DNA of 25,804 nucleotides, taken from a virus (taxonomy: Duplodnaviria > Heunggongvirae > Uroviricota > Caudoviricetes). The position numbers and the translations under genes are program-made. Below, piece by piece: positions 4,295-24,563 of the stretch (the first letter of the stretch is position 1; every line of letters starts with the position of its first letter). Under the pieces are notes generated by a model, which saw only the letters and a program-made list of their open reading frames with translations, did no database searches and was not told the origin of the DNA. The DNA lies in the IMG/VR virus record IMGVR_UViG_648276650_000007, positions 1 to 25,804 of that record, one strand, 5' to 3'.

Positions 4295-4869
4295 ACCGGG
4301 CCTCCGGTTGTGTCGCCGCCTTTCAGGACGCCAGTATGCTGATGTGCATCAACCACAATCCCGTTAGAACTCATCACTCCGCCGCCCTGGGTAACGCCAC
4401 CATTGATCACCACTTCGCTGTTAATGCGCGTGTGGTCAGCCTCCAGTACAAACTCACTGGTTTTCATGGTGATGTTGTCAGCGGCCTCAATGACCATTGA
4501 TTTGATGCCCCTTACATACCAACGCCCGGTGGCAGGTTCGTATTCAAACCAGCCACCGTCAGGATGTTCTGTCACGCAGGCGTCTGCCGACGTCGACGGT
4601 GGCGCGAACTGATTCGAATAGATGGCGGGCAGCGCAAAGGCTGTTTCCAGATTGCCGCCCAGACTCAGTAGCACCACCTGCTCACCTTCCGATGGTCGCC
4701 ACCATGTCCGGGCATTACCCGCGCGCAGCGTCAGCCAGTTAATCCAGTTGGTTTCAAGGTCGCCCGTTTTCACCCGGCAAAGCCAGTTTTCCCTGTCCAC
4801 TTCGGTGACTACCCCTGTGCGGATCAGGTTGGTGATAAGGCGCATGATTTCGGTTAATTGTGCGTTCAT
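4291..4869 (-). CDS. V: baseplate spike/assembly protein V
   Basis: 192 aa; WINWLTLRAGNARTWWRPSEGEQVVLLSLGGNLETAFALPAIYS resembles P2 gpV; first gene of the V-W-J-I-H-G block. Confidence 0.85.
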   Translation of the reverse strand: MNAQLTEIMRLITNLIRTGVVTEVDRENWLCRVKTGDLETNWINWLTLRAGNARTWWRPSEGEQVVLLSLGGNLETAFALPAIYSNQFAPPSTSADACVTEHPDGGWFEYEPATGRWYVRGIKSMVIEAADNITMKTSEFVLEADHTRINSEVVINGGVTQGGGVMSSNGIVVDAHQHTGVLKGGDTTGGPV

Positions 4870-4914
4870 AGGGAAAGGTTGCCATCAGGGGAAGAAAGGC
4901 GGCAGTGCTGCAAC

Positions 4915-4934
4915 TTGTATCAGTGCTGATACAA
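4915..4934 (-). promoter_or_regulatory. candidate Ogr/Delta-type late promoter activator site (TGT-N12-ACA dyad) upstream of V
   Basis: Perfect dyad TTGTATCAG-TG-CTGATACAA containing TGT-N12-ACA, in the S-V intergenic gap and centred ~55 nt upstream of the V start codon. P2 late promoters carry this element upstream of the -35 region. Confidence 0.5.
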
Positions 4935-4937
4935 AGA

Positions 4938-5384
4938 TCACCCCGCCAGCCATTGCAGAATCATGTCGCGGGTCATTGCCTCAACATCATCATTTACACC
5001 CAGAAGGCGACGCTCTGCGTAACGCACCTCCGGTCCCTTACGACTGACGCGATCTCGCAGGCCGTAATGGTGAATGCGGGCAATGCGCTGCACCTTGCCT
5101 TCAAACTGCACGCTGGCAGAGTCGGTGCTGGCGGCAGTTTTCAGGTATTTTGTGGTGCGCAGCTTTGCAAACATCTGACGTTTGATACGGCCTTTTTTAC
5201 TGCGTGCTGTTACCCGTCGCGGTTCATAGCCGCTGCCGTCAGGGTTGCGCTGCATCCTGATATTCTGCTGCTGTGTCCGGCGAAGTTCCTGCGCCAGCTG
5301 GCGCATCATGCGGCTTCTCGAGGCTGGTTCCAGATTCGCCAGCAAGGCACTCAGCCAGTCGTCCACCTTCTGCAGTTCAGCCAC
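4938..5384 (-). CDS. S: tail completion protein S (virion morphogenesis)
   Basis: 148 aa; synteny between R and the V promoter gap; overlaps R by 8 nt. Confidence 0.8.
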   Translation of the reverse strand: MAELQKVDDWLSALLANLEPASRSRMMRQLAQELRRTQQQNIRMQRNPDGSGYEPRRVTARSKKGRIKRQMFAKLRTTKYLKTAASTDSASVQFEGKVQRIARIHHYGLRDRVSRKGPEVRYAERRLLGVNDDVEAMTRDMILQWLAG

Positions 5385-13757: not shown

Positions 13758-14423
13758 TTAAAGATCCGGATCTACAGGCTCATGATATAGATTTACAGGG
13801 TAATGAATAACTTCATAATTCAGTTGAGTAACTGTGTGAACATGCTGGCTATAAAAAACCAATGGATTTTTTTGACAAGGAGTAATCGTTATAGATTTAC
13901 AGGCATGAATTCTTGGTGCGAATTTATCTAAATGCGCCTTCCAGTTGCTCATCATTTCATTACATTTTCTATTACGAGTATAGATAATCAATCCACCACT
14001 TGCGCTGTCTACGGTCCCTGTACTATATCGTTCAGTGAGTTGAGCATACCCTTTAAATAAATAACTATATGAAGATGTATGTTTTTTGGCTTCGCCATGC
14101 CAAATATAATCCTTTAGTTTTATTGTAATATCACAATGTCCGCGCTGATTATTTTCATGAAATGCTTCAATGTCCATATCTTTATTTTTGATATTGGCCA
14201 ATAAAATTAAAGTAAGCTGATCTTCTGTTAAATCGAAGTTTAACTTATTTGAATTCTCTTCTATTTCCTTTACAGCAGAATCAAGTTCAATCCTGACAAA
14301 TTGTTTGAAATTATCGTACGATTGAAGTGCAAATCTAACACGAGTAATAGAAGCATTAATACGCTGAAGAAAAATATCATTATCAATATCAGCCAAACTC
14401 ATTGCTGCAGACATTTTTAACAT
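13758..14423 (-). CDS. hypothetical protein, cargo gene 3 of 3; possible PD-(D/E)xK-type nuclease
   Basis: 221 aa, AT-rich codon usage unlike the flanking phage genes. Start ATG overlaps the stop of gene 2 (TGATG). Contains EAFHE...GHCDITIKLKDYIWHGEAKK, compatible with an E...D...ExK nuclease core; this is inference from motif spacing only. Confidence 0.65.
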   Translation of the reverse strand: MLKMSAAMSLADIDNDIFLQRINASITRVRFALQSYDNFKQFVRIELDSAVKEIEENSNKLNFDLTEDQLTLILLANIKNKDMDIEAFHENNQRGHCDITIKLKDYIWHGEAKKHTSSYSYLFKGYAQLTERYSTGTVDSASGGLIIYTRNRKCNEMMSNWKAHLDKFAPRIHACKSITITPCQKNPLVFYSQHVHTVTQLNYEVIHYPVNLYHEPVDPDL

Positions 14424-14869
14424 CAGATAATATCCTTTGATTTAGATTCATCTAATGTAAAAAAAGGAAATACGAATGACTTATAGTCATACATAAGCTC
14501 CCCTGTAAATGGGTTTGCTAAAGATTGACTGATTTCCGCCTCAATAACTTCCTCTATTTCAAGTTCTACAGGGTCATGAAAATCATCAATGAACCAATAA
14601 TTGAGTTTTAAAAAATCAACCTTTGGGCTACAAAGAATTTGTATGGCCGGATAGATAACCTGCTCATACGTTTCTGGCTGTAAAACCTTATTATAACCAC
14701 CAGCTATATTAAATAAATCCTTATAACTTAAAGCTATATTTGATGATTTTTTAGCCCTTGCCTCGATTTCATCGTACAAATAGCAAGCTAACGCCCCAAT
14801 TTCAGGGCGTTCTGCACACATTTCTTTGATGATCTTGGGCATATCACCATCCTTCATTGCTGACTCCAA
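14423..14869 (-). CDS. hypothetical protein, cargo gene 2 of 3 (small acidic protein)
   Basis: 148 aa; start is directly adjacent to the gene 1 stop; acidic C-terminal half (DDFHDPVELEIEEVIEAEISQ); no motif I recognise. Confidence 0.6.
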   Translation of the reverse strand: MESAMKDGDMPKIIKEMCAERPEIGALACYLYDEIEARAKKSSNIALSYKDLFNIAGGYNKVLQPETYEQVIYPAIQILCSPKVDFLKLNYWFIDDFHDPVELEIEEVIEAEISQSLANPFTGELMYDYKSFVFPFFTLDESKSKDII

Positions 14870-15976
14870 TTATAATATCAGCTTTGTGAGGGTTTCGAAA
14901 TCATCTTTGGATATACATTTACTTAATATAGCATAGTTAACAGGAGAGCAACTACTCCCTCCTAGATGCCTGCGGAGTGTTCCCGGAATGATAAGCTCTA
15001 CGTTATCCGCTAATTGCAGTTTTGGATTATTTCTATCAACTCTAATTCCAATACGATACAAACCAATACTGCCTACTGCTTTGATGCCTTCCTTATTAAA
15101 CAAATCATCACGTAAGTCTTTAGTGGCCACATTTTTCTTTTCTTTATGCGTAGTCCCCTCATTCGTCAAAAATGACAAATCAAAGACTTTATAGCTTAAT
15201 TTTGAATAAGGCAATGAATTTTGTTTGAAAATTGGCTCAATTAACGGATAAAAATCTTTTTCCGATGATTTAAATTCATAACCGACATGATTATACAATT
15301 CACGAATAATGTTACTCTTTGCAAAAGTAACATTATCACCAATAATATTACCATTAGTATCTACCAAAACATGAATTTTATTAGTAACAGAGTCTAATAT
15401 ACAGACATCAAAACATTGTCGCTTTTCTTTTCGCTTTGCAATAATTTCATCAAACTGCTTGTATTGCGCAAGTGCTGACGGGGGAATTTTTTCTCTTACA
15501 ACTAATTCTCTGACAGATGAAAAAACAAGTATTGACTGGGTGTTTTGAATAGAATAATTAACAAGTTCAGGTTGATTTTTTACAGCATTTTGCAATTGGA
15601 CATCATCAAGGATCGAATCAACCAATAATGATGGTTGATTCATCAAATTCCATTGGAAACTAAATCTGTCATTTAGTGTTTTAATTACACTATTATCTAC
15701 AGTCAAACTAAATATTGCTTTTTCACCATAAACGACCTGACCCAAAATTAGGTCATTTACGTTTGCCATAATGCCATCAAACTTTTGCCTATCTTTACTT
15801 TTAAGATCAATGAGGCTTTCTAGTATTTTTTCGTTTGTTGCTTCACGCCCCCTACCTGTTGGCAGCCCTAAAGACGCAATAATTGGCCTTGCAACGTTCC
15901 ATGTGAAACGTTCAGTTAAGGTCAAGATCGACTTTAACTCAGACTCAGAAAGCACTACTGGGACACTACCTGTCAT
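14870..15976 (-). CDS. hypothetical protein, cargo gene 1 of 3
   Basis: ORF 14870..15985 begins with GTG; the in-frame ATG at 15976 (MTGSVPVV...) is preceded by an AGGTG Shine-Dalgarno-like sequence. ~368 aa; no Walker A or other motif recognised by eye. Confidence 0.65.
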   Translation of the reverse strand: MTGSVPVVLSESELKSILTLTERFTWNVARPIIASLGLPTGRGREATNEKILESLIDLKSKDRQKFDGIMANVNDLILGQVVYGEKAIFSLTVDNSVIKTLNDRFSFQWNLMNQPSLLVDSILDDVQLQNAVKNQPELVNYSIQNTQSILVFSSVRELVVREKIPPSALAQYKQFDEIIAKRKEKRQCFDVCILDSVTNKIHVLVDTNGNIIGDNVTFAKSNIIRELYNHVGYEFKSSEKDFYPLIEPIFKQNSLPYSKLSYKVFDLSFLTNEGTTHKEKKNVATKDLRDDLFNKEGIKAVGSIGLYRIGIRVDRNNPKLQLADNVELIIPGTLRRHLGGSSCSPVNYAILSKCISKDDFETLTKLIL

Positions 15977-16125
15977 AACTTGCACCTAGTCATCCAAAAA
16001 GCAATAAGAATTTGCTCTTGTCTTAATTTATCCTTCGATACCTAACAAATTACCTCAATGTTGAAAAAATTTGCAAGCCATTTGCTTCTAAAAAGCGACC
16101 TTACTCAGAGTGTTACAAAACTAAG

Positions 16126-16139
16126 CGAGCGCGCGCTCG
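16126..16139. repeat. perfect 14-bp GC-rich palindrome CGAGCGCGCGCTCG
   Basis: Read directly from the sequence; lies in the non-coding GC-rich island between the AT-rich cargo operon and the lipoprotein genes, abutting the cos-like motif. Confidence 0.85.
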
Positions 16140-16154
16140 TATCCCCGCCACGCC
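16136..16154 (-). other. candidate cos (cohesive end) site
   Basis: Minus strand reads GGCGTGGCGGGGATACGAG. The first 13 nt match the 19-nt cohesive end I recall for phage 186 (GGCGTGGCGGGGAAAGCAT) and 12 of 13 match P2 (GGCGAGGCGGGGAAAGCAC). Orientation is correct relative to Q (5' end of the motif points toward Q). Depends on my memory of the cos sequences. Confidence 0.3.
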
Positions 16155-16634
16155 TGCCCGCTTTATGTAGTAGTTTTCATGCACCTGCATGACATGAGCA
16201 AAAGCCCGCCAGTTCTGGCATGTCTTAGCCAAACCGATCCTCAAACGATCATGCGAACTCATGCAGCATAGACATGCATGACATGAAAATCGGTCAAACC
16301 TTGAAACCAGTCATAAATATGAGCCAGCTTAATACACACTAAATAGCTGCGTCTAATACTGCTACACCTGCCGTTTACTGACATGTGGCATGTCGCGTAA
16401 GGACAACATACTGTAGGCCAGATACAGCAGGATCAGGCGAAGAAAACGGCCCCACGCCTTACCCAGCAAGAGCCAAGGGCCAAGGGCTAACCGAAAGTGG
16501 AACATTATTCCGCGCAGTTATTTAGTGTCAGCTCTTTTGAGCTAAAATCAAGTTTCAACATGAGGGTCTGTGCAGGCTTTCTCATCCCGCTAATTTATAC
16601 AGCACACCTATATGGCTATGAGTTTGTCATGCCC

Positions 16635-16667
16635 GCTAATCCTGTTAGGATTAGCCTTGTTTTTTTA
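16635..16667 (+). terminator. intrinsic-terminator-like hairpin 17 nt upstream of the lipoprotein start
   Basis: 8-bp stem GCTAATCC / GGATTAGC, loop TGTTA, followed by CTTGTTTTTTT. Confidence 0.5.
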
Positions 16668-16683
16668 CGATTGGGATAGGGAT

Positions 16684-17490
16684 ATGAAGAAATTAACTGG
16701 CGTAATTGCTTTTGCTCTGCTGCTTACTGCTTGTGACAAACCGAAGATCGATGCATCAAGCGATCAGTCGATGAAAGAGTCCATTCAAAAAGTAAGAGAG
16801 TCCTTACCTGCAGATAAAAAAGCTCAGTTTGATGATGCAGTTAAAGTCGTTGCCTTTAGCCAAATCAACATGAGAGAGCTAATGCAGGCTGGAACGTCTT
16901 CTGGGGACGTCTACGAAACAAAAATTAAGTCAGCGTTGGAAGGTAAAACTGGTGATGAGGTTATAAATTACGCACAAACTATTCGCCTTGAGCGTGAGAA
17001 GAGAGAGAAAGAACAGGCTCTGCAAGAAATAAAAGAACTGGAAGCCAAACAAACCTCTGCAACACAGGCTGCGGAAAAAATGAAAGCCTTCAAGGTCGAA
17101 CGTTCCCGTTTTTATTTCCAGAAAGAGGATTACGGCAATGATCAGCCAATTCTGGATATTAGCGTTGAAAACGGAACAGACAAAGCGGTTGCCAGAGTAT
17201 TCTTCAAAGGAGTTATTGCCAGCCCAGGAAGAAGCGTCCCTTGGTTCTCTGACGTCTTCAACTATAAAATTTCTGGAGGTCTGGAACCAGGTGAGAAAGC
17301 CAACTGGAAATTAGCCCCTAATAGATACTCTGATTGGGGAAAACTTAAAGTTCCGGCTGATGCTATATTTACCGTCACAGTCATTGGCCTTGAAGACGCA
17401 GATGGGAAATCGATCTATGGTGACGCCGAGTTTTCAGAACGCGATGCTGACAGACTGAATCAACTTAGAGATAAGTACCTTTCTAAATAA
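16684..17490 (+). CDS. hypothetical lipoprotein
   Basis: ORF 16612..17490; start placed at Met25 (MKKLTGVIAFALLLTACDKPK) because of the signal peptide with lipobox LLTAC and the hairpin covering the upstream part; ~268 aa mature protein with a Lys/Glu-rich coiled-coil-like middle. Confidence 0.7.
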   Translation: MKKLTGVIAFALLLTACDKPKIDASSDQSMKESIQKVRESLPADKKAQFDDAVKVVAFSQINMRELMQAGTSSGDVYETKIKSALEGKTGDEVINYAQTIRLEREKREKEQALQEIKELEAKQTSATQAAEKMKAFKVERSRFYFQKEDYGNDQPILDISVENGTDKAVARVFFKGVIASPGRSVPWFSDVFNYKISGGLEPGEKANWKLAPNRYSDWGKLKVPADAIFTVTVIGLEDADGKSIYGDAEFSERDADRLNQLRDKYLSK

Positions 17491-17598
17491 TCAAAATTAA
17501 AGCTACTTCAGCATAGTCCCTGAGAATATATATCAGGGACTACCAAATCACGGCAGATACCCCTTAGTTAAATAATGCTAAACGCTTAGAAAGAGACC

Positions 17599-17898
17599 AT
17601 GAAACGTATAACTTTCTCCTTTACGTTAGTAGCAATCATCATAGCCTTAGCTGGATGTGCTTTGCCAGATAAAGACGGCGACTTCGGAGCTTATGTTCAT
17701 GCCTGTCAGCAATATGCATACGGAAAATCCTATGCCTTTGAGAATAGAGACTTCGCGTATAAGGTCTGTAAGGACGCGGCGAAACTGTGGAGTGACGAAG
17801 TTCCTGGCTATATCATCAGGCAAATTCAACTACATCCTGAAATACCCAGCGAAGAAATTAAATATGCAGCCATGGCCGGCTCTTTGGGGAACAACTAA
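17599..17898 (+). CDS. hypothetical small lipoprotein
   Basis: 99 aa; signal peptide with lipobox IALAGC; co-directional with the preceding lipoprotein gene. Confidence 0.6.
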   Translation: MKRITFSFTLVAIIIALAGCALPDKDGDFGAYVHACQQYAYGKSYAFENRDFAYKVCKDAAKLWSDEVPGYIIRQIQLHPEIPSEEIKYAAMAGSLGNN

Positions 17899-17965
17899 AT
17901 CAACTTATGAGAAAGGGGCTTAATGCCCCTTTTCGGTTCCCTTATCAAGTCCTAACGAAACAAGC

Positions 17966-18256
17966 TCAACTGATTACATCCATCGACCTACTGTATTCAT
18001 GGCTTCGAATTTTCGCCATCAACTCATCAGTCAATTCAGAAACCCACTGCAGAGCTAGCCCCTTCTCTTCATCACTACACTCACTAGCCGCTACAAGCTT
18101 AAGAAAAAAATCAATGCGCTGGAGCTTCAAAGACTCCAAAAAATAGTCCTGCATCTTTCCTCCTATAACACCATACGCAATACTGTACATATAACCACTG
18201 TTTATATTTACAGTATATAATAATCTTACTGATGTAAAACGTTTTTTTACGTTCAT
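17966..18256 (-). CDS. hypothetical protein downstream of replication gene A
   Basis: 96 aa AT-rich ORF; no recognisable motif; start uncertain. Confidence 0.3.
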   Translation of the reverse strand: MNVKKRFTSVRLLYTVNINSGYMYSIAYGVIGGKMQDYFLESLKLQRIDFFLKLVAASECSDEEKGLALQWVSELTDELMAKIRSHEYSRSMDVIS

Positions 18257-18307: not shown

Positions 18308-20722
18308 TTAATACATGTTCCGCCACTTATCATCTTCCTGCAAACGCTGGTTCCGATAGAAGATACGCAGGCCTGCTCCTGACGGAATACTGCCACCGCA
18401 AAGGAGCAAATCGACCTCTTTCTCGCTGCCATCAAATCCTCTGGACTTCAGTTCATAGACGAGCTGCTGACGCTGATACTCTGTAATTCGCTGTTTGTAG
18501 TCTTTACGCCGTTTCGGTTTAACCAGGCGCAATCTTGCTGCCAGTTCCCGGCGCTCTTTTTTGCTCATACTGTGCAGGTAATCGTGCAATTCCTTGTCAT
18601 CCATGCAGGTAATGTCCGTTCTGGTATCCCCATCTGCTGATTCATCTTTCTCATGTTGGTTCAAATTTTCAGCAAGGGGACAGTTATTGCCACGAGTCCA
18701 AGGGGCGCAAGCGCCCTGGTCGGCTGCCGCCTCCTGAACGTCAACGGCCTTACGAACCATTTTCCACTTCACTGCATGAGTGCAGATCTTGCCCTCTGCA
18801 ATGGGTGACCAGATGCCATAAATACGAATACCGTGATCGCCATAGGCGGTTGGCTCTTCGTTGATTTCATAAGCGGTTCTGATGAGGTGATATTTGCGGG
18901 GAACCAGTACGCCGCCCTGCTTCATGATGTAGGTGGCAAAACAACCAGCATCAGCAGCAGCCAGAATGGCATCAAGACGCGGGTTATCCAGTACCGGCGC
19001 ACCTGCTTTTTTGTCACCCTGTTGCCTTGCCGCCTGACCAGCCAGCAAGCGAAGTTCACGGTAAGCCTGACGTCCCGGAATACCAAAGAAGCGGAATTGC
19101 TGAACACGATGCAGAGACGCCCAGGCATTAACGTATTCAGCGTTATCACGCAGGGATTTACCCGTTTCCTTGCTGATCTCGCCAGCCAGACCACGCCCGT
19201 CAATGTTCTTACTGATGTATTTCGCGATGTAGCTTGTCGGCGTTCCTTTGCGCGGGTTTATCAGCTCAGATTTAAAGCGTGGACCAGTGTTATTACCCAG
19301 TTCCTCGCGGTCTTCACGGATGGCAAACTTACGCAACAATGCAGTAATGGCGCGGCGGTCTTTTTTGCGCATGAAACACAACAGGTGCCAGTGAACTGTA
19401 CCGTCATGATGCGGCTCAGCCACCCGCACGCCATACCAGCGCAACCCGGCTTTGTGTATCGCCTTACGAAATGCAGCAAACATGCCGACCAGATAATCGC
19501 TGCTTTGTCTTACCGTCGCATTTGTCCAGGTTGGGTTTGGTCTGCCGTTATTGAGCGTGGAATGGAAACGTGACGGACAGGTAATGGTGTAGAAAACGGC
19601 GCAGTCACCGCGCATTTCCGCGATAAGCTCCAGACCTTTAACACAGGCCATCATCTCATTGCGGCGGTGCGCCGGGTTGCTGCTGCTGGCGTTTACCACG
19701 TCTTCCATATCCAGCGTGTCGCCCTCTTCGTTCACCAGTTCATGAGAACGGAAAAACTCCAGTGACTTGCGGCGCTGCTCACGTTTATGCATCACGGCTT
19801 CATAGCTGACATAGGGAGATGCTTTTTTGCTGACCAGGCAGACAGCACGCAACTGCTCTTCCCGCCATTCGCAACGCATTTTCCATAATTTCCGGTACCA
19901 CCAGTCGGCGCACAACATACGCGCCAGCGAACCCGGAATGAGTTCATAGGGCACGGGTTTACGGCGGTTTCTTTTCCGACGGAGTTGCTCAAACGCAGGC
20001 GGGATGACATCCAGACGCAGGGTTTCCGCTGCCACCTTTTCCCATGTCTTGCGGATTTCTTCTGGCTTAACGTCATCGGTGGCATACAAATCACCACAAG
20101 CTGCATCAAGGCACATGCTCATATGCGCAGCGACAAGGGTAGACAGGCGTTTCACCTGATCCTGACTCATTTCAGGCAGAATCAGCAGGCCGTCCAGCCC
20201 TACATGGCTTGCCATAAAACGAAAAGATGCAGATAGCTGGCTGTCGCGTACATGCTCCAGTCGTTCCAGACATGGCTTAATCGTCTCACGTAAATAGCGG
20301 GAATAAGCCTTTGGCCTGCCCAAGCTGCTGAAGTATTCAATACGTTGCATCAGCGGCTTGCTGATATGGGAGGGCTGGGCGCTGACGTCTGCCAGAATGA
20401 CCATGTCCGGGTTAAAACGCTGCTGCTCATGCGCCAACTTTGCCCGGCTAATGAGCTTATCCTGCTCTATTTCGCGTTGGACAGGATCACGGGATTCATT
20501 AAAGAAATAACGCTCCCAGACCTGATCACTCAGTGCCTCGCGGCGCAGTTGTTCCTGCTCGTTATCGGCAGCGTACAGAGTGATCAGGTTTGAAAGCGCA
20601 GAAACCGGCGCAACTTCCGCCGGGTCCAGATAAGGGTTAATGGCCTTTTTCGGGCTGTTCCATGAGAACGATGCGGCAGCCTCGTTAAAGCCGCAGCAGT
20701 TGCTCATATCGGCATGGCTCAT
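18308..20722 (-). CDS. A: replication initiation endonuclease (P2 A / rolling-circle HUH family)
   Basis: 804 aa; HUH-like motif TVHWHLLCF and two-tyrosine motif [11 protein letters not shown]; size and position match P2 gene A; ATGA overlap with the upstream methylase stop. Confidence 0.9.
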
Positions 20723-21576
20723 GCACGTACTCCGTACACGGCAGAACTATCCACGCCACGCGAATAATCAAATCCCACCCAGCAGCGCGGCCCGGAAACA
20801 GCAATGATTTCTGTTGCTGATTTACTCTCACCAGCTGCTACGCCGATGCTGCGTTTTACCTTGATATAGTGGTGAGTAAAATTGCGATACAGCGAACGGA
20901 TCAGGGATGTGTCACTGTTAGAAACAATGACCGGATGTCCTTCTGATGACCGATGTTCAAGAACGGATGCCAGGTGATACTGGTCATCTTCAGTAAAGCC
21001 GTCAGCGTGATAGCCGGAAAACGTACCGTCATAAGGCGGATCGCAATACACCACATCCCCCGCCTTCAACATCGCCAGCGTTTCATCAAAGCTGGCGCAG
21101 ATAAACGTTGCTCGCTGGGCTTTTTCTGCAAAAGCGCGAATTTCTTTTTCAGGGAAATACGGATTTTTATAATTACCGTAGGGAATGTTGAAATGCCCGC
21201 TCTTGTTATAGCGACATAACCCACGGTAACCGTGACGATTGAGATACAGGAAATATACCGCTTTCATGAAATCAGTAATTTCAGTTGAGTAATTAAACTC
21301 CTGCCTTATGTTGTAATAAGCCACCTCCCTGTTTGCGATCTCAAATAAAACTTTGGCGCGAGATATAAACGATTCACAATCAGCGGCAACCTTTTTATAG
21401 AGGTTGATTAAATCAGGATTAATATCCGCAACCAGATAGCAGGGATAATCCGTCTCCATCATCACAGCACAGGAACCCGCGAAAGGTTCAACTAGTCGCG
21501 GACCAGCAGGAAGATGTTTTTTCAGTTCGGACATTACGGCGGTTTTATTTCCCGCCCATTTCAGGATGGTGCTCAT
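20719..21576 (-). CDS. Dam-like DNA N6-adenine methyltransferase
   Basis: ORF 20719..21636; start placed at Met21 ([11 protein letters not shown]), whose ATG forms an ATGA overlap with the stop of the upstream zinc-finger gene. Motifs EPFAGSCAV (AdoMet binding) and [10 protein letters not shown] (catalytic DPPY). Confidence 0.85.
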
Positions 21577-21800
21577 ACAGCCCCCCCGTTGTAATGTTTG
21601 CCTTTCAGCTCTGCGATTTCCTGACAGGTAATGCAAAGCTGCACACCCGGAATGGCACGGCGGCGTGCTGGCGGAATTGGCGCTTCACACTCAACGCAAA
21701 GCACGCGGGACACGCCCGGCGTTTTGGCACGGGCAGCACGGATATGGCGCTGGCGTTCTTCTTCAACGCGCTGCTGTACGAGATCCATTGCATCAGCCAT
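21573..21800 (-). CDS. TraR/DksA-family C4 zinc-finger protein
   Basis: 75 aa; CVEC-x17-CITC spacing typical of phage TraR/DksA-like proteins. Confidence 0.8.
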   Translation of the reverse strand: MADAMDLVQQRVEEERQRHIRAARAKTPGVSRVLCVECEAPIPPARRRAIPGVQLCITCQEIAELKGKHYNGGAV

Positions 21801-22039
21801 TAGTGGATCTCCTGCGCTTCGTTCTGGATTGCTTCAGCAGTCACACGCAGCAGTTCTGCCGCTTCCACGTGGTTTAGCTGACGGGATGAGATATGACACG
21901 CCAGGCTATCAAGGCGAGCTGCCATTGCTTCAGCCCTTGCCCGGCGTTCTTCCAGACGAGCCTCTGTCAGTAAAATATTAAGCCCTGCGTCATCCGGTCC
22001 GGTTTTAGTCGTGAGGGTTTCAATATTACGCATAATCAA
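21800..22039 (-). CDS. hypothetical early protein
   Basis: 79 aa; in the early operon, 1-nt stop/start overlap with the downstream zinc-finger gene. Confidence 0.5.
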   Translation of the reverse strand: MIMRNIETLTTKTGPDDAGLNILLTEARLEERRARAEAMAARLDSLACHISSRQLNHVEAAELLRVTAEAIQNEAQEIH

Positions 22040-22100
22040 TTCTCCTGAATTTAGATAAAGGGATGCCCGGCGGGTTTACGCCATTAATTTCATTAGTTGG

Positions 22101-22442
22101 TTAATTCGGCATGGTTAGCCGTCTGGGAAATAAGCTCACCACTGCACGAAAATGATTCATTGCTTTAATCAGCTCCCGCTTTTCGTCAGTGGTCAGCTCA
22201 TTAATGCTGATGCTATGACGTTCAGCTGGAATTTTTGCCATAAAGAATATGGCAGCCAGTGCCCGTTTATTTTGTTCATTATTGATATCCCGTGGATCAC
22301 GCATATCTTTAATAAACCGCTCAAGCTCTGACTCAATATTCAGGCCAAAAACTTTCGCCCTTAACTCCGCAATGTGATTAAGTCCATTCAGGCGTTCACC
22401 GGGGCTTAATGGAACAGTTGCTGCAGCGCCATTAATTGCCAT
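22101..22442 (-). CDS. hypothetical early protein
   Basis: 113 aa; co-directional member of the early operon; no motif recognised. Confidence 0.5.
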   Translation of the reverse strand: MAINGAAATVPLSPGERLNGLNHIAELRAKVFGLNIESELERFIKDMRDPRDINNEQNKRALAAIFFMAKIPAERHSISINELTTDEKRELIKAMNHFRAVVSLFPRRLTMPN

Positions 22443-22464
22443 ACTTCATATCCCCCAAACGCAG

Positions 22465-22689
22465 CTATCGTTCTTTGTTCTTACGGTAACGCTCAAGAGG
22501 AGATACATTTTTTCGTATCGTCTCTTTAACCTGCTCTCCCCGTAAAAACGTCCCATCCTTTAACGCGAAAAAGTAACTGCCATCGCCCGACAATGACGGA
22601 TAGCAACAGAGCAAATCATCTTCAGGTACTGAATAACTCTCCCCTCTGTAACGAAACTGATAAACCACTTCACTTTCTGCCGCATACAT
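22465..22689 (-). CDS. hypothetical early protein
   Basis: 74 aa; GGAG-type Shine-Dalgarno about 9 nt upstream of the ATG; overlaps the 3' part of the 22560..22886 ORF in another frame. Confidence 0.35.
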   Translation of the reverse strand: MYAAESEVVYQFRYRGESYSVPEDDLLCCYPSLSGDGSYFFALKDGTFLRGEQVKETIRKNVSPLERYRKNKER

Positions 22690-22856
22690 TTGGACTTTCT
22701 CCGTTTCCTCGTGGTCAATTCAGACAGCAATTCATCTTGTGAATGACATGGATGCCAGCGTTTTCCATCCTCACCCGTGATCCAGCCGTGACCGTAGTGC
22801 ATTGCCGGGCTTTGTTTTACCAGCAGCGATGCAAATGATGGTTCTTTCGTCAGCAT
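22560..22856 (-). CDS. possible Fil-like small early protein
   Basis: In-frame Met11 (MLTKEPSFASLLVKQSPAMHYGHGW...) lies just downstream of the cII stop; the C-terminal third overlaps the next ORF and looks low-complexity, so the true 3' end is uncertain. Confidence 0.35.
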   Translation of the reverse strand: MLTKEPSFASLLVKQSPAMHYGHGWITGEDGKRWHPCHSQDELLSELTTRKRRKSKCMRQKVKWFISFVTEGRVIQYLKMICSVAIRHCRAMAVTFSR

Positions 22857-22863
22857 AAGCACC

Positions 22864-23382
22864 TCACAGCAAACCGAATGAAGCACCGAGGCCAGTCACG
22901 GTATCAACTGCACTCGCCATCGCAGGGTTAGCCTGTAAACGGGCCTGCAATGAAACAGCAGCCAACGCCATCAGTCGTGTTACAGAGTTAATGCTGCTGA
23001 TAGCATCACGACGACCTGCACTGGTTTTTACATCGCCAGATACCGCACCTGCAGCAACACGCCCGATCTCTGCGGTTGCACTCATGACGTAATGTGGCAG
23101 TTTCTCTTTTGCCACCTCATTAATCGGTACACATGGCAGACAATGAATCTGTGCCAGAAAACCATCTACCAGCGTTGAATCTTCAGTCAGATCGGTAAGC
23201 AGCCAGATTTCTGGTGCGGTTAATAAATGAGGCTGAGCTGGGTTCAGCTTGTTCCGCAGAATCTGCACATTCATGCCCGCACGTTCTGCCAGTTGCACCA
23301 GATTGTGGCGCAGTGCGAATGCACGACAGGCTTCATCAAAATGTGGATGTTTGGAAACTTGGTAATCAAACATGGTTTTCAA
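22864..23382 (-). CDS. cII: CII-like lysogeny establishment regulator (186 CII family)
   Basis: 172 aa; [24 protein letters not shown]...[18 protein letters not shown] (HTH) resembles the 186 CII / phage CP76 family from memory; positioned after apl as in 186. Confidence 0.7.
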
Positions 23383-23437
23383 CTCCGAACTTATCGCAAA
23401 ATCGAACTCAGCGTCTTATTGCGAAAATAGACGTCTA

Positions 23438-23641
23438 TTAAGCAGACAAAGCATCAACAGTCAGAGCAGCCAGGTTAATCATTACCTTTTCACGTTTTTT
23501 GTCTTTACGAAGACGATGACGAGGTAGTCGGCCATCAGCCAACATGTCGTTAATCGTATCAATAGAAAGGCCAGTCAGTTCGCTATAACGTTCGATTGTG
23601 ACATGTGGTGTATTCAGAGTAATTGAAATGTTAGGTGTCAT
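23438..23641 (-). CDS. Apl/Cox-like small DNA-binding protein (excisionase / switch repressor)
   Basis: 67 aa basic HTH-like protein ([36 protein letters not shown]), divergently transcribed from the repressor gene; first gene of the early operon. Confidence 0.7.
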
Positions 23642-23786
23642 AAGGCAACATTCCTTCTAGGTATGGCTTGTGGCGAGCCGTTGTTTGTCGTGATTAGTAG
23701 TGAAGGCTCCAAAAGAACACTTCTGGTTCAACTTTAAGATCGCTTTTGGAATCTGTCAACGAATTTTGGATTTCTTTGGAGGACTT

Positions 23787-24356
23787 GTGGATTTCAATAG
23801 CGGCGGTAAGAAAGCCATAGAACGTTTAGTTGAAGCATATGGGTTCGGTACCCGTCAGGCTCTCTGTGATCATTTAGGTGTTTCTAAGAGCACCATGGCA
23901 ACGCGCTATATGCGTGATATTTTTCCAGCAGATTGGGTAATCCAGTGCGCCCTTGAAACGGGCACCTCGCTTAATTGGCTAACAACAGGGCATGGTTCAA
24001 AGCAAGCATCAGCAAATACAAATACTATAGAAGTAGAAAAATATTTATTGTCTGATGGAGCATTGCAGAAAGACGGTTTTTATATTTTTGATAAGGGATT
24101 TCTACCCTCTACGTTTAAAAAACCTTTTGTCATCACAGATAACAATTCTGAATTTATTTGTGATAAAGAATTTGATGATATACGTGATGGTAAATGGGTA
24201 ATAAGTATTGATGGCGAAATAACGATCCGTGACATTACTCGTTTACCCGGTGGAAGAATCTTCGTCGAGGGTGGAAACAGAGCCTTCGAATGCAAGATAG
24301 AAGACATTGAAATAATTGGTAAAATTATAAGTTTAACAGTCAAGTATATTAAATAG
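23787..24356 (+). CDS. cI: CI-type immunity repressor (186 CI-like, two-domain)
   Basis: ORF 23700..24356 opens on a GTG; the in-frame GTG at 23787 is preceded by GGAGGA and gives ~190 aa, close to the 192 aa of 186 CI. N-terminal HTH (AIERLVEAYGFGTRQALCDHLGVSKSTMATRYMR). Start codon choice is uncertain. Confidence 0.7.
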   Translation: MDFNSGGKKAIERLVEAYGFGTRQALCDHLGVSKSTMATRYMRDIFPADWVIQCALETGTSLNWLTTGHGSKQASANTNTIEVEKYLLSDGALQKDGFYIFDKGFLPSTFKKPFVITDNNSEFICDKEFDDIRDGKWVISIDGEITIRDITRLPGGRIFVEGGNRAFECKIEDIEIIGKIISLTVKYIK

Positions 24357-24371
24357 TACCGGGAGGAAACT

Positions 24372-24563
24372 ATGCTTGGTAAGGTATTTTTTGTGGTTTT
24401 GTCATGTTCTTTGTTATTAAACCCACTAACTACCTATGCTAGAAATTATCCCTGCTCAGGGAAAAAGGGAGGTGTTTCTCACTGTACCTCAGATGGCAAA
24501 TTCGTTTGCAATGATGGAACTATTAGTAAATCCAAAAAAATCTGTACTAAAAACTCACGATAA
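24372..24563 (+). CDS. small secreted cysteine-rich protein
   Basis: 63 aa; strong GGGAGG Shine-Dalgarno; N-terminal signal peptide ([19 protein letters not shown]), then Lys/Gly-rich mature part with 4 Cys; AT-rich. Confidence 0.5.

What the first reader, a model, noticed from the sequence alone, without database searches (positions are those of the whole stretch)
20719..21576. Dam-like methyltransferase translationally coupled into the early/replication operon
The methylase ATG overlaps the TraR-like gene stop (ATGA) and its stop overlaps the replication gene A start (ATGA), so it is co-expressed with replication functions. P2 itself has no gene here. A phage-borne adenine methylase can protect phage DNA from restriction or methylation-sensing defences, or alter host gene regulation in the lysogen.
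Basis: partly seen in the sequence, partly recalled or inferred. Interest (0 to 1): 0.4.

Follow-up and report, generated by a model that had tools for sequence, protein, structure and literature searches.

The report
Known prophage Dam methylase beside replication gene
This is an ordinary, already annotated DNA adenine (Dam-type) methylase gene of a Fels-2/186-like E. coli prophage. It sits just upstream of the phage replication gene and probably keeps freshly replicated phage DNA methylated at GATC.

Summary
It lies on the minus strand. A 285-aa ORF (20719-21576) starts in an ATGA overlap with the TraR/DksA-like gene and ends in an ATGA overlap with replication gene A.

The protein is a full-length Dam-family N6-adenine methyltransferase:
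- TIGR00571 scores 320 bits.
- It is 46% identical to E. coli Dam.
- The DPPY motif and 6 of 7 GATC-contact residues are conserved.

It has no restriction partner and is under purifying selection (dN/dS 0.08-0.20).

It is not new. RefSeq annotates it as DNA adenine methylase. The 5.4-kb early segment that contains it is in about 22% of complete E. coli genomes. Close relatives sit at the same position in Fels-2 (STM2730), RE-2010 and Klebsiella phages. A held paper says the 34-kb retron-Ec67 element, described in 1990, holds a Dam methylase ORF.

The expected target is GATC, the host's own motif, and the gene lies in the CI-repressed lytic operon.

One useful extra result: the Dam-less P2 and 186 lineages are 3- to 8-fold depleted in GATC, and only GATC, whereas Dam-bearing relatives are not. 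An 11-locus Dam-less subclade with normal GATC content weakens a causal reading.

Interest is low.

The parts
20719..21576 (-). Orphan Dam-family N6-adenine DNA methyltransferase CDS (285 aa plus stop)
   Evidence: PF02086 7e-75 over the full length. TIGR00571 'dam' 319.7 bits against a cut-off of 114.85. E. coli Dam structures 2g1p/4gol at 1.3e-72. 46% identity to E. coli Dam. Best PADLOC match is an orphan MTase. RefSeq WP_000104182.1 'DNA adenine methylase' sits at the identical position in E. coli ECONIH4.
21031..21042 (-). Codons for catalytic motif IV, D179-P-P-Y182
   Evidence: Read from the sequence. Invariant in 37 of 37 orthologues.
21469..21483 (-). Codons for AdoMet-binding motif I (F32-A-G-S-C36)
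   Evidence: Aligns to E. coli Dam F35-V-G-A-G39. F32 and G34 are invariant in 37 of 37 orthologues.
21573..21576 (-). ATGA overlap: stop of the TraR-like gene and start of Dam
   Evidence: An NTGA overlap is conserved in 36 of 38 related loci.
21581..21587 (-). G-rich Shine-Dalgarno-like run 4 nt upstream of the Dam ATG, inside the TraR-like ORF
   Evidence: Read from the sequence. Function is inferred.
20719..20722 (-). ATGA overlap: stop of Dam and start of replication gene A
   Evidence: An NTGA overlap is conserved in 29 of 34 intact related loci.
20730..20733 (-). GGAG Shine-Dalgarno sequence for gene A, inside the last codons of Dam
   Evidence: Read from the sequence. GAGG or GGAG is present at the same place in most relatives (output).
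20717..20742 (-). Predicted local RNA hairpin that pairs the AUG of gene A. A ribosome terminating on Dam would open it.
   Evidence: Present in both the MFE and the centroid fold; start-codon pairing probability 0.99. It is not conserved across the family: mean pairing 0.65 against 0.61 in shuffles. It is therefore only suggestive.
21573..21800 (-). TraR/DksA-type C4 zinc-finger gene (75 aa), upstream partner
   Evidence: PF01258 4e-11 and TIGR02419 1.5e-18.
18308..20722 (-). Replication gene A (804 aa, rolling-circle initiator), downstream partner
   Evidence: PF05840 Phage_GPA 2e-127. 31-35% identity to P2 and 186 gpA.
23731..23759 (-). Predicted early lytic promoter (TTGACA-17-TAAAGT) in the cI-apl intergenic region, the likely source of the Dam transcript
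   Evidence: It is the only promoter-like site on the minus strand in 20000-24000. Its position corresponds to pR of 186. This is an inference; no transcript data were available.

Best explanation
The ORF encodes an active, orphan, alpha-class Dam-family DNA (adenine-N6) methyltransferase of a Fels-2/186-like (Peduoviridae) E. coli prophage. It most likely methylates GATC.

It is the second-to-last cistron of a translationally linked chain in the early lytic operon: DUF2732, TraR-like, Dam, gpA. That operon is driven by the CI-repressed early promoter. Dam is therefore made only after infection or induction, together with the rolling-circle initiator gpA.

Host Dam is limiting during a lytic burst, so a phage-made Dam keeps the many new genome copies fully methylated at their roughly 100 GATC sites. 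That would spare them the consequences of un- or hemi-methylated GATC: MutH nicking or cleavage, SeqA binding, and cutting by methylation-sensitive GATC endonucleases in a new host.

Shown here: gene identity, motifs, orphan status, operon architecture and its conservation, purifying selection, and the GATC-specific compositional contrast with Dam-less relatives.

Inferred: GATC specificity, lytic-only expression, and which downstream hazard matters most.

My confidence by step is about 0.97 for a Dam-family MTase, about 0.85 for GATC specificity, and about 0.5 for the main benefit being avoidance of under-methylation damage.
For: Identity:
- PF02086, TIGR00571 and PDB E. coli Dam matches cover the full length, with 46% identity to E. 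coli Dam.
- All three solved relatives (E. coli Dam, DpnM, T4 Dam) are GATC enzymes.
- The E. coli Dam DNA-contact residues K9, Y119, L122, R124, P134 and Y138 (roles from PMC4417163) align to identical residues K6, Y117, L120, R122, P132 and Y136. Only N120 differs (it is R). These residues are conserved in 35-37 of 37 orthologues.

Functionality: dN/dS against 30 orthologues with measurable dS is 0.08-0.20; DPPY is invariant.

Orphan status: the neighbours are the TraR-like gene and gpA, and the best PADLOC match is an orphan MTase.

Operon:
- The 4-nt overlaps are conserved.
- No promoter-like site lies on the gene's strand between it and the cI-apl region.
- The 186 record states that translation to the end of the ORF upstream of A is needed for A translation.
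- Fels-2 STM2729 (A) and STM2730 (Dam) transcripts change together (PMC3844500).

Host Dam is limiting: lambda virion DNA is only 46% methylated at GATC on a wild-type host and 77% with extra Dam (bioRxiv 10.1101/2025.08.29.673000).

GATC counter-selection in enterobacteriophages, and the MutH explanation for it, are cited in PMC5014478.

Comparative signal for GATC observed/expected:
- P2 0.19, 186 0.12; Fels-2 0.90, RE-2010 0.87, window 0.83.
- Over 240 IMG/VR loci: 66 Dam-bearing, median 0.92; 80 P2-type, median 0.23; 80 186-type, median 0.335.
- Of 16 palindromic tetramers only GATC differs, with ratios of 3.1 and 2.3 against 0.81-1.33 for the others.
- Dam-bearing lineages with a distant gpA also score 0.57-1.29.

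All 38 species loci that carry the gene are Enterobacterales apart from one MAG labelled Bacillota, probably misbinned. By general knowledge these hosts already methylate GATC.
Against: - No methylation data were available, so specificity is inferred from homology and composition.
- N120 of E. coli Dam is replaced by R, and R137 by N. This could change flanking-sequence preference.
- The match to the chromosomal-Dam equivalog model NF008152 is below its cut-off (284.6 against 441), so this is a paralogous phage lineage.
- The GATC contrast is confounded by phylogeny, because it rests on about three main clades. In addition, 11 loci of the window-type gpA clade have no D12 methylase within +-10 kb yet have near-normal GATC, O/E 0.57-1.03. 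Dam carriage is therefore not required for a normal GATC content, unless those phages lost Dam recently or carry one elsewhere.
- For lambda, raising methylation did not change the mutation rate (same preprint), so the fitness cost of under-methylation is not established.
- The hairpin that would enforce coupling to A is not conserved across the family.
Confidence: 0.7

Rival explanations
1. Classical anti-restriction. The phage Dam exists mainly to pre-methylate virion DNA, so that it survives methylation-sensitive GATC endonucleases (MboI- or DpnII-like enzymes) in the next host.
For: Reviews describe phage orphan methyltransferases as protecting DNA that is to be exported, and note that many phages encode Dam homologues (PMC12707154; bioRxiv 10.1101/2020.06.22.160242 calls Dam an anti-restriction gene). 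Under-methylated virion DNA, 46% in lambda (10.1101/2025.08.29.673000), would be vulnerable. The gene is orphan and lies in the lytic operon.
Against: All loci carrying it are from Enterobacterales. I know of no evidence that methylation-sensitive GATC endonucleases are common there; this rests on general knowledge and was not tested. GATC depletion of the Dam-less relatives P2 and 186 fits any GATC-directed hazard and does not discriminate. This rival overlaps the best explanation rather than excluding it.
Confidence: 0.25
2. Phage self-regulation. GATC methylation by the phage enzyme times or licenses a step in the phage's own cycle, such as early-promoter activity, gpA nicking at ori, or packaging. 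P1 needs Dam methylation at pac in this way.
For: The P1 precedent (PMC12707154). A single GATC (23738-23741) lies in the spacer just upstream of the -10 of the predicted early promoter. Co-translation with gpA would tie methylation to the start of replication.
Against: One GATC in a 29-bp promoter is close to chance expectation, at one site per 311 bp. The immunity region is too variable to test conservation; only near-identical relatives matched. Relatives P2 and 186 run the same cycle with no Dam and almost no GATC.
Confidence: 0.08
3. Lysogenic conversion. The methylase is expressed in the lysogen and changes host methylation and gene expression.
For: Prophage methyltransferases can alter host expression in other systems; M.EcoGIII is discussed in PMC4659465.
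Against: The gene lies inside the CI-repressed early lytic operon, with no promoter-like site of its own (186 map). Its predicted motif is already about 99.9% methylated by host Dam (PMC6602927). Known lysogenic-conversion genes of this phage family sit elsewhere, in the old/tin/fun regions.
Confidence: 0.04
4. Different or relaxed specificity. The enzyme methylates a motif other than GATC, or GATC plus near-cognate sites, and so provides a mark that host Dam cannot.
For: N120 and R137 of E. coli Dam are changed. The D12 class includes enzymes with other specificities (general knowledge). Some relatives carry a second, divergent D12 methylase in tandem, which shows that this slot can hold other specificities.
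Against: R124, L122, P134, K9, Y119 and Y138 are conserved (roles from PMC4417163). Only GATC differs compositionally between Dam-bearing and Dam-less clades.
Confidence: 0.08
5. Passenger ORF. The reading frame is kept mainly as a translated leader that delivers ribosomes to gene A, and its enzymatic activity is irrelevant.
For: The slot upstream of A holds unrelated ORFs in relatives: DUF5405 in P2, a PAPS-reductase-like gene in 186, and exonuclease or ASCH genes elsewhere. All end in an overlap with A. The 186 note says upstream translation is needed for A.
Against: dN/dS is 0.08-0.20, and the catalytic and DNA-contact residues are invariant over saturated synonymous divergence. Some relatives have the TraR-like gene directly next to A, so no leader ORF is obligatory.
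Confidence: 0.03

Closest known systems
Dam methylase ORF of the retron-Ec67 element (Hsu, Inouye & Inouye 1990 PNAS 87:9454). Dodd & Egan 1996 (Virology 219:115) reported that retrons Ec67 and Ec86 sit in a 186-related prophage.
   Same: A member of the same 90%-identity cluster, 276 of 285 residues identical to the window protein, carries the source name 'retron EC67 DNA adenine methylase'. The Fels-2 record cites the same name for the E. coli HS homologue. PMC7826664 summarises the 1990 paper: a 34-kb element with 26-bp flanking repeats that holds a Dam methylase ORF.
   Different: I could not read the 1990 paper or obtain the original Ec67 sequence. Identity to the original protein, and the experiment behind 'Dam methylase function' in its title, are not verified here. 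This window carries no retron; its cos-proximal cargo is a set of genes of unknown function.
Fels-2 STM2730 and Salmonella phage RE-2010 gp10 (genus Felsduovirus), Klebsiella phages 4LV2017 and KP12, Escherichia phage vB_EcoM-813R9
   Same: Same gene order, TraR-like then Dam then gpA, with the same overlaps. The region is 96-97% identical in nucleotides for RE-2010 and the Klebsiella phages. Protein identity to Fels-2 is 72%. All are annotated as DNA (adenine) methyltransferase.
   Different: Only allelic differences, plus different immunity and cargo regions.
E. coli chromosomal Dam (structures 2g1p, 4gol)
   Same: Same fold class and motif order. 46% identity over residues 4-263. DPPY and 6 of 7 GATC-contact residues are conserved. 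Both are orphan enzymes.
   Different: The match is below the NCBIfam equivalog cut-off. N120 is R and R137 is N. There is a 22-aa C-terminal tail that overlaps the ribosome-binding region of gene A. It is phage-borne and sits in a lytic operon rather than in the host dam operon.
Other phage Dam enzymes: P1 Dmt, T4 Dam, and the Stx-phage enzymes M.EcoVT2Dam and M.EcoGV
   Same: Phage-encoded orphan GATC methyltransferases of the D12 class (PMC6602927; PMC12707154).
   Different: They are distant in sequence: T4 Dam scores 4e-18 and T4-type phages show 22-26% identity. They lie in different genomic contexts. P1 has a demonstrated packaging role, and no such role is known here.
Phage 186 orf84-to-A translational coupling and the variable slot upstream of gene A in P2-like phages
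   Same: An accessory ORF ends in a 4-nt overlap with A. The 186 record states that translation to the end of orf84 appears necessary for A translation, and it places a terminator (tM1) just inside A.
   Different: The ORF in 186 is PAPS-reductase-like, not a methylase. P2 has DUF5405. Coupling has not been tested for the Dam-A pair.

Membership tests
Dam family / D12-class (alpha) N6-adenine DNA methyltransferase | Full-length match to PF02086 and TIGR00571 above the curated cut-offs | tested here: met
   PF02086 252.4 bits (cut-off 22), profile positions 1-253 of 253. TIGR00571 319.7 bits (cut-off 114.85).
Dam family / D12-class (alpha) N6-adenine DNA methyltransferase | Catalytic motif IV, (D/N)PPY | tested here: met
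   D179-P-P-Y182, invariant in 37 of 37 orthologues.
Dam family / D12-class (alpha) N6-adenine DNA methyltransferase | AdoMet-binding motif I (FxGxG-like) lying N-terminal to motif IV, the alpha-class order | tested here: met
   F32-A-G34-S-C aligns to E. coli Dam F35-V-G-A-G. F and the first G are invariant. The second G is C here.
Dam family / D12-class (alpha) N6-adenine DNA methyltransferase | GATC-recognition residues of E. coli Dam (K9, Y119, N120, L122, R124, P134, Y138) | tested here: met
   6 of 7 are identical in the HMMER alignment; N120 is R. Residue roles come from PMC4417163. Conserved in 35-37 of 37 orthologues.
Dam family / D12-class (alpha) N6-adenine DNA methyltransferase | Methylation of adenine in GATC, demonstrated in vivo or in vitro | not testable with these tools
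   Only indirect support: GATC is the single palindromic tetramer whose frequency differs between Dam-bearing and Dam-less P2-family clades.
Chromosomal Dam orthologue (NCBIfam NF008152 equivalog) | Score at or above the equivalog cut-off of 441 bits | tested here: not met
   284.6 bits. It is a phage paralogue, not the host dam gene.
Type II restriction-modification system | A cognate restriction endonuclease gene next to the methylase | tested here: not met
   The flanking genes are the TraR-like zinc finger and gpA. The best PADLOC model is 'orphan methyltransferase'.
Translationally coupled cistrons | Stop/start overlap with a Shine-Dalgarno sequence inside the upstream ORF, conserved among relatives | tested here: met
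   ATGA at both ends. NTGA at 36 of 38 5' junctions and 29 of 34 3' junctions.
Translationally coupled cistrons | Downstream translation depends on upstream translation | not testable with these tools
Fels-2/186-like (Peduoviridae) early lytic operon | CI repressor divergent from apl/cox, then cII, fil, DUF5347, DUF2732, TraR-like and gpA | tested here: met
   Pfam hits to Phage_CI_repr, Phage_CP76, DUF5347, DUF2732, zf-dksA_traR and Phage_GPA. The order matches RE-2010, Fels-2 and E. coli ECONIH4.

The most novel reading that the evidence does not exclude
Within the P2 family, carrying a Dam gene and purging GATC from the genome would be two alternative, lineage-stable answers to the same host hazard acting on under-methylated GATC (MutH and/or SeqA rather than restriction). 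The conserved NTGA coupling of Dam to gpA would fix the methylase-to-initiator ratio so that methylation keeps pace with rolling-circle replication. The Dam-less subclade with a normal GATC content (L156-L170) would then imply a third solution, not yet identified.
Probability: 0.25. Interest if true: 0.35.

Novelty: already known. Interest (0 to 1): 0.13.

Why it matters
It matters little as a discovery. The gene is annotated and very common, and a held paper traces a Dam methylase ORF in this kind of element to 1990.

Its practical value is interpretive. When prophage methyltransferases are listed in E. coli, Salmonella or Klebsiella methylome studies, this one should be expected to be silent in lysogens and redundant in motif with host Dam. 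It has to be tested in a dam- background or on virion DNA.

The P2-family contrast is a clean natural comparison. Dam-less P2 and 186 are 3- to 8-fold depleted in GATC only, and Dam-bearing relatives are not. That comparison could help settle the old question of why enterobacteriophages avoid GATC.

Tried and rejected
1. I first took M.EcoMIV of E. coli EC958, a prophage 'Dam homolog' reported as not transcribed in the lysogen (PMC4659465), as evidence for silence of this gene. Checking the EC958 genome showed that enzyme is a 254-aa methylase in a Mu-like prophage, not this family. I did not use it.

2. M.EcoGV and M.EcoVT2Dam (PMC6602927) sit on Stx prophages. They are analogues, not orthologues.

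3. I tested whether an RNA hairpin over the start codon of gene A is a family-wide coupling device. It is strong in this window, but pairing averaged over 30 relatives is no higher than in shuffled sequences. I rejected it as a general feature.

4. I looked for a terminator in the 61-nt gap at 22040-22100, the position of tR1 in 186. There is only a weak GGCG/CGCC hairpin, with z = 0.

5. I tried to test conservation of the GATC in the early-promoter spacer. The immunity region matched only near-identical relatives, so the test was uninformative.

6. The alternative 305-aa TTG start was rejected on orthologue N-termini.

7. I could not retrieve Hsu et al. 1990 or Murphy et al. 2013.

8. Two papers were checked for a link to this gene and had none: the Salmonella 'Dam-dependent epigenetic memory' paper and the E. 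coli HS phage preprint.

9. Structure prediction and the large protein-database searches were not run. The full-length 1e-72 match to solved E. coli Dam made them unnecessary.
Full report
**1. Observation**

The ORF lies on the minus strand at 20719..21576. It has an ATG start and encodes 285 aa.

On the minus strand the upstream junction reads AAC GGG GGG GCT GTA TGA, with the Dam ATG formed by the last base of GTA and the first two of TGA (ATGA = 21573-21576). The downstream junction reads GTA CGT GCA TGA, with the ATG of the next gene formed in the same way (ATGA = 20719-20722).

The upstream gene is a 75-aa TraR/DksA C4 zinc finger (PF01258, TIGR02419). The downstream gene is an 804-aa P2-type replication initiator (PF05840, 2e-127). 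A G-run (21581-21587) and a GGAG (20730-20733) provide Shine-Dalgarno sequences inside the preceding ORFs.

Four-base overlaps are frequent in this phage, so the arrangement is typical operon architecture, not an oddity. It is, however, conserved. In 38 loci from different enterobacterial species (Dam identity 55-95%, dS mostly above 1), an NTGA overlap is kept at 36 of 38 upstream junctions and 29 of 34 intact downstream junctions.

**2. What the window is**

The surrounding genes identify a 186/Fels-2-like member of the Peduoviridae:
- an integrase and a CI repressor on the plus strand;
- an apl-like gene, cII (CP76), fil, DUF5347, DUF2732, the TraR-like gene, Dam and gpA on the minus strand;
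- P2-type head and tail genes further left.

The 5.4-kb early segment is 100% identical in four complete E. coli genomes. At least 80% of it is present in 1213 of 5426 complete E. coli genomes.

In ECONIH4, RefSeq annotates the ORF at exactly these boundaries as WP_000104182.1, 'DNA adenine methylase'. The region is 96-97% identical in Salmonella phage RE-2010 (genus Felsduovirus), Klebsiella phages 4LV2017, KP12 and the Kp48xx series, and Escherichia phage vB_EcoM-813R9, with the same gene order. Fels-2 itself has STM2730 at the same place, 72% identical.

**3. What the protein is**

- It matches PF02086 (D12-class N6-adenine MTase) end to end at 7e-75.
- It matches TIGR00571 'dam' at 319.7 bits against a cut-off of 114.85.
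- It falls short of the chromosomal-Dam equivalog model (284.6 against 441).
- Its best solved relatives are E. coli Dam (1.3e-72, residues 4-263), DpnM and T4 Dam, all GATC enzymes.
- Identity to E. coli Dam is 46%.
- Motif I (F32-A-G-S-C) precedes motif IV (D179-P-P-Y), the alpha-class order.

PMC4417163 assigns the residues of E. coli Dam that handle GATC recognition and base flipping: R124 to the fourth base pair, L122 and P134 to the third, K9 and Y138 to the first, Y119 to intercalation, and N120 to a base hydrogen bond. These align to R122, L120, P132, K6, Y136, Y117 and R118. Six of seven are identical, and they are conserved in 35-37 of 37 orthologues.

Pairwise dN/dS against orthologues is 0.08-0.20. 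Two of 38 species loci carry broken copies, and one E. coli genome has an IS2 in the gene.

There is no endonuclease gene beside it, and the best PADLOC model is an orphan methyltransferase.

**4. Already known**

The 90%-identity cluster holding this exact sequence has 4038 members. They are named 'DNA adenine methylase', and one is named 'retron EC67 DNA adenine methylase'.

The Fels-2 record describes STM2730 as similar to 'retron EC67 DNA adenine methylase [E. coli HS]'. PMC7826664 summarises the source. Hsu, Inouye and Inouye (1990) found retron Ec67 within a 34-kb element, flanked by 26-bp repeats, that also encodes a Dam methylase. Dodd and Egan (1996) reported that retron Ec67 is inserted in a prophage near the cos site, and their title calls it a 186-related prophage. 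I could not read the 1990 paper itself. What activity assay it contains is therefore not verified here.

**5. The slot**

P2 has orf83 (DUF5405) between its zinc-finger orf82 and A, overlapping both. P2 does lack any methylase (PMC3091744).

Phage 186 has three non-essential genes in the slot: an exonuclease-like gene, DUF5405, and the PAPS-reductase-like orf84. Its record notes that 'translation to end of orf84 appears necessary for translation of A protein', and it places a terminator (tM1) just inside A.

Relatives of the window phage add further cassettes between the TraR-like gene and A. These are a second, divergent D12 methylase, an RNase T-type exonuclease, DUF3850/ASCH, and a PAPS-reductase-like gene. 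Nearly all are joined by NTGA. Some relatives have the TraR-like gene directly next to A.

Other genera of the family also place a Dam just upstream of A: ESSI-2 (Seongnamvirus) and phiT5282H (Novemvirus).

The slot is therefore a modular dock for DNA-metabolism accessory genes, and Dam is one common occupant.

**6. Expression**

On the gene's strand, the only promoter-like site between 20000 and 24000 is TTGACA-17-TAAAGT at 23759-23731. It lies in the cI-apl intergenic region, where 186 has pR. No convincing terminator separates it from Dam.

By analogy with 186, the gene should be silent in the lysogen and switched on together with gpA. In Fels-2, microarray signals for STM2729 (A) and STM2730 (Dam) changed together (PMC3844500).

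In this window a local hairpin pairs the AUG of A, and a ribosome terminating on Dam would melt it. This feature is not conserved across relatives. Termination-reinitiation at the overlap is therefore the safer reading of the coupling.

**7. Likely function**

The hosts of every locus found are Enterobacterales, apart from one MAG labelled Bacillota that is probably misbinned. By general knowledge these hosts already methylate GATC. The phage enzyme therefore adds capacity, not a new mark.

Host Dam is limiting during lytic growth. Lambda virion DNA is 46% methylated on a wild-type host and 77% when Dam is over-produced (bioRxiv 10.1101/2025.08.29.673000). msDNA and other multicopy DNAs are also under-methylated (bioRxiv 10.1101/2020.06.22.160242).

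Enterobacteriophages are known to avoid GATC. The classical explanation is MutH action on unmethylated sites (McClelland 1984; Deschavanne and Radman 1991, as cited in PMC5014478).

I tested this within the P2 family. GATC observed/expected values were:

| Genome or group | Dam | GATC O/E |
|---|---|---|
| P2 | no | 0.19 |
| 186 | no | 0.12 |
| Fels-2 | yes | 0.90 |
| RE-2010 | yes | 0.87 |
| this window | yes | 0.83 |
| 66 IMG/VR loci, window-type gpA | yes | median 0.92 (0.70-1.32) |
| 80 IMG/VR loci, P2-type gpA | no | median 0.23 |
| 80 IMG/VR loci, 186-type gpA | no | median 0.335 |

The 240 IMG/VR loci were anchored on gpA.

Among the 16 palindromic tetramers, only GATC differs between the groups. 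Its ratios are 3.1 and 2.3, against 0.81-1.33 for all the others. Dam-bearing lineages whose gpA is as distant as those of P2 and 186 also have near-normal GATC, 0.57-1.29.

This is indirect evidence that the enzyme acts on GATC in vivo and relaxes selection against that site.

The caveat is serious. The contrast rests on a few clades. In addition, 11 loci of the window-type clade have no D12 methylase within +-10 kb yet have GATC O/E of 0.57-1.03. Either they lost Dam recently, or they carry one elsewhere, or Dam is not the decisive factor.

**8.

A lysogen-versus-cured methylome in a dam+ host will show no new motif whether or not the enzyme is active. GATC is already about 99.9% methylated in such hosts (PMC6602927), and the gene is expected to be off. 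The stated refutation criterion is therefore not valid.

The informative experiments are:
- expression in a methylase-free host;
- measurement of GATC methylation in virion DNA of wild-type and knockout phage;
- plating on mutH, seqA, dam and GATC-restricting hosts.

A phage Dam can also be a liability, because Dam over-production triggers the Sen2 retron toxin system (bioRxiv 10.1101/2020.06.22.160242).

**9. Verdict**

The feature is real and correctly identified. It is also ordinary: annotated, widespread and described in the literature. The only mildly new result here is the clean GATC-only compositional split between Dam-bearing and Dam-less P2-family lineages, and it fits long-standing ideas.

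Noticed in passing
window 13758-18256: This is the cargo region between the portal gene and gene A, the place where P2 has old/tin and related prophages carry retrons Ec67/Ec86. It holds a minus-strand three-gene operon (371, 148 and 221 aa) with no Pfam, NCBIfam or PADLOC hit and only PHROGs of unknown function. It also holds a DUF6694 lipoprotein gene (292 aa), a 99-aa ORF and a 96-aa ORF. It may be an uncharacterised anti-phage or lysogenic-conversion module. In E. coli ECONIH4 the DUF6694 gene is split by IS1.
   Followed up: partly
P2 (L091), 186 (L092), Fels-2 (L093), RE-2010 (L094); IMG/VR loci L095-L334: There is a GATC-only compositional split within the Peduoviridae. The Dam-less P2 and 186 clades have GATC O/E of 0.1-0.5. 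The Dam-bearing Fels-2-like clade has 0.7-1.3. The other 15 palindromic tetramers are unchanged.
   Followed up: yes
L156, L159, L160, L161, L163, L165-L170: This subclade has window-type gpA (81-84% identity). In most members the TraR-like gene abuts gene A directly, and no D12 methylase lies within +-10 kb. GATC is nevertheless not depleted, with O/E 0.57-1.03. The 'Dam relaxes GATC avoidance' idea does not explain this.
   Followed up: partly
L012:2656-3501, L019:2557-3501; L017, L019, L021-L023 at about 4355-5365: Some relatives carry a second, divergent D12-class adenine methylase immediately upstream of Dam, giving tandem methylases. Some carry a 186-orf84-like PAPS-reductase-domain gene between Dam and A. 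Others carry RNase T-type exonuclease or DUF3850/ASCH genes. All are chained by NTGA overlaps.
   Followed up: partly
window 23738-23741: A single GATC lies in the spacer just upstream of the -10 hexamer of the predicted early promoter (TTGACA gattccaaaagcGATCt TAAAGT). This could make the lytic promoter sensitive to methylation state, but it is close to chance expectation, and its conservation could not be tested.
   Followed up: partly
window 24372-24563 (+): A small 63-aa ORF lies between cI and int. It has a hydrophobic N-terminus and several cysteines. It matches PHROG 6000 (unknown function), and RefSeq calls it a hypothetical protein. It may be a secreted or lipoprotein product expressed in the lysogen.
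   Followed up: no
L192:8057.., L185, L191, L203, L216, L227, L300: A few P2-type loci and one 186-type locus carry a different 297-335-aa D12-class methylase-like ORF in the cargo region downstream of gene A. Their GATC content is as depleted as that of their clade, so this enzyme probably has another specificity or belongs to a defence system.
   Followed up: no
L011 (QAKE01000041.1): A contig binned as a 'Bacillota bacterium' MAG carries this enterobacterial-type prophage segment: the TraR-like gene, exonuclease, DUF3850, Dam and gpA, with 80-89% identity to the window. It is probably a binning error.
   Followed up: no
window 21039-21042: The codons for the catalytic DPPY motif (GAT CCG CCT TAT) themselves contain a GATC site, so the gene carries its own presumed target inside its active-site coding sequence. 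This is probably a coincidence.
   Followed up: no
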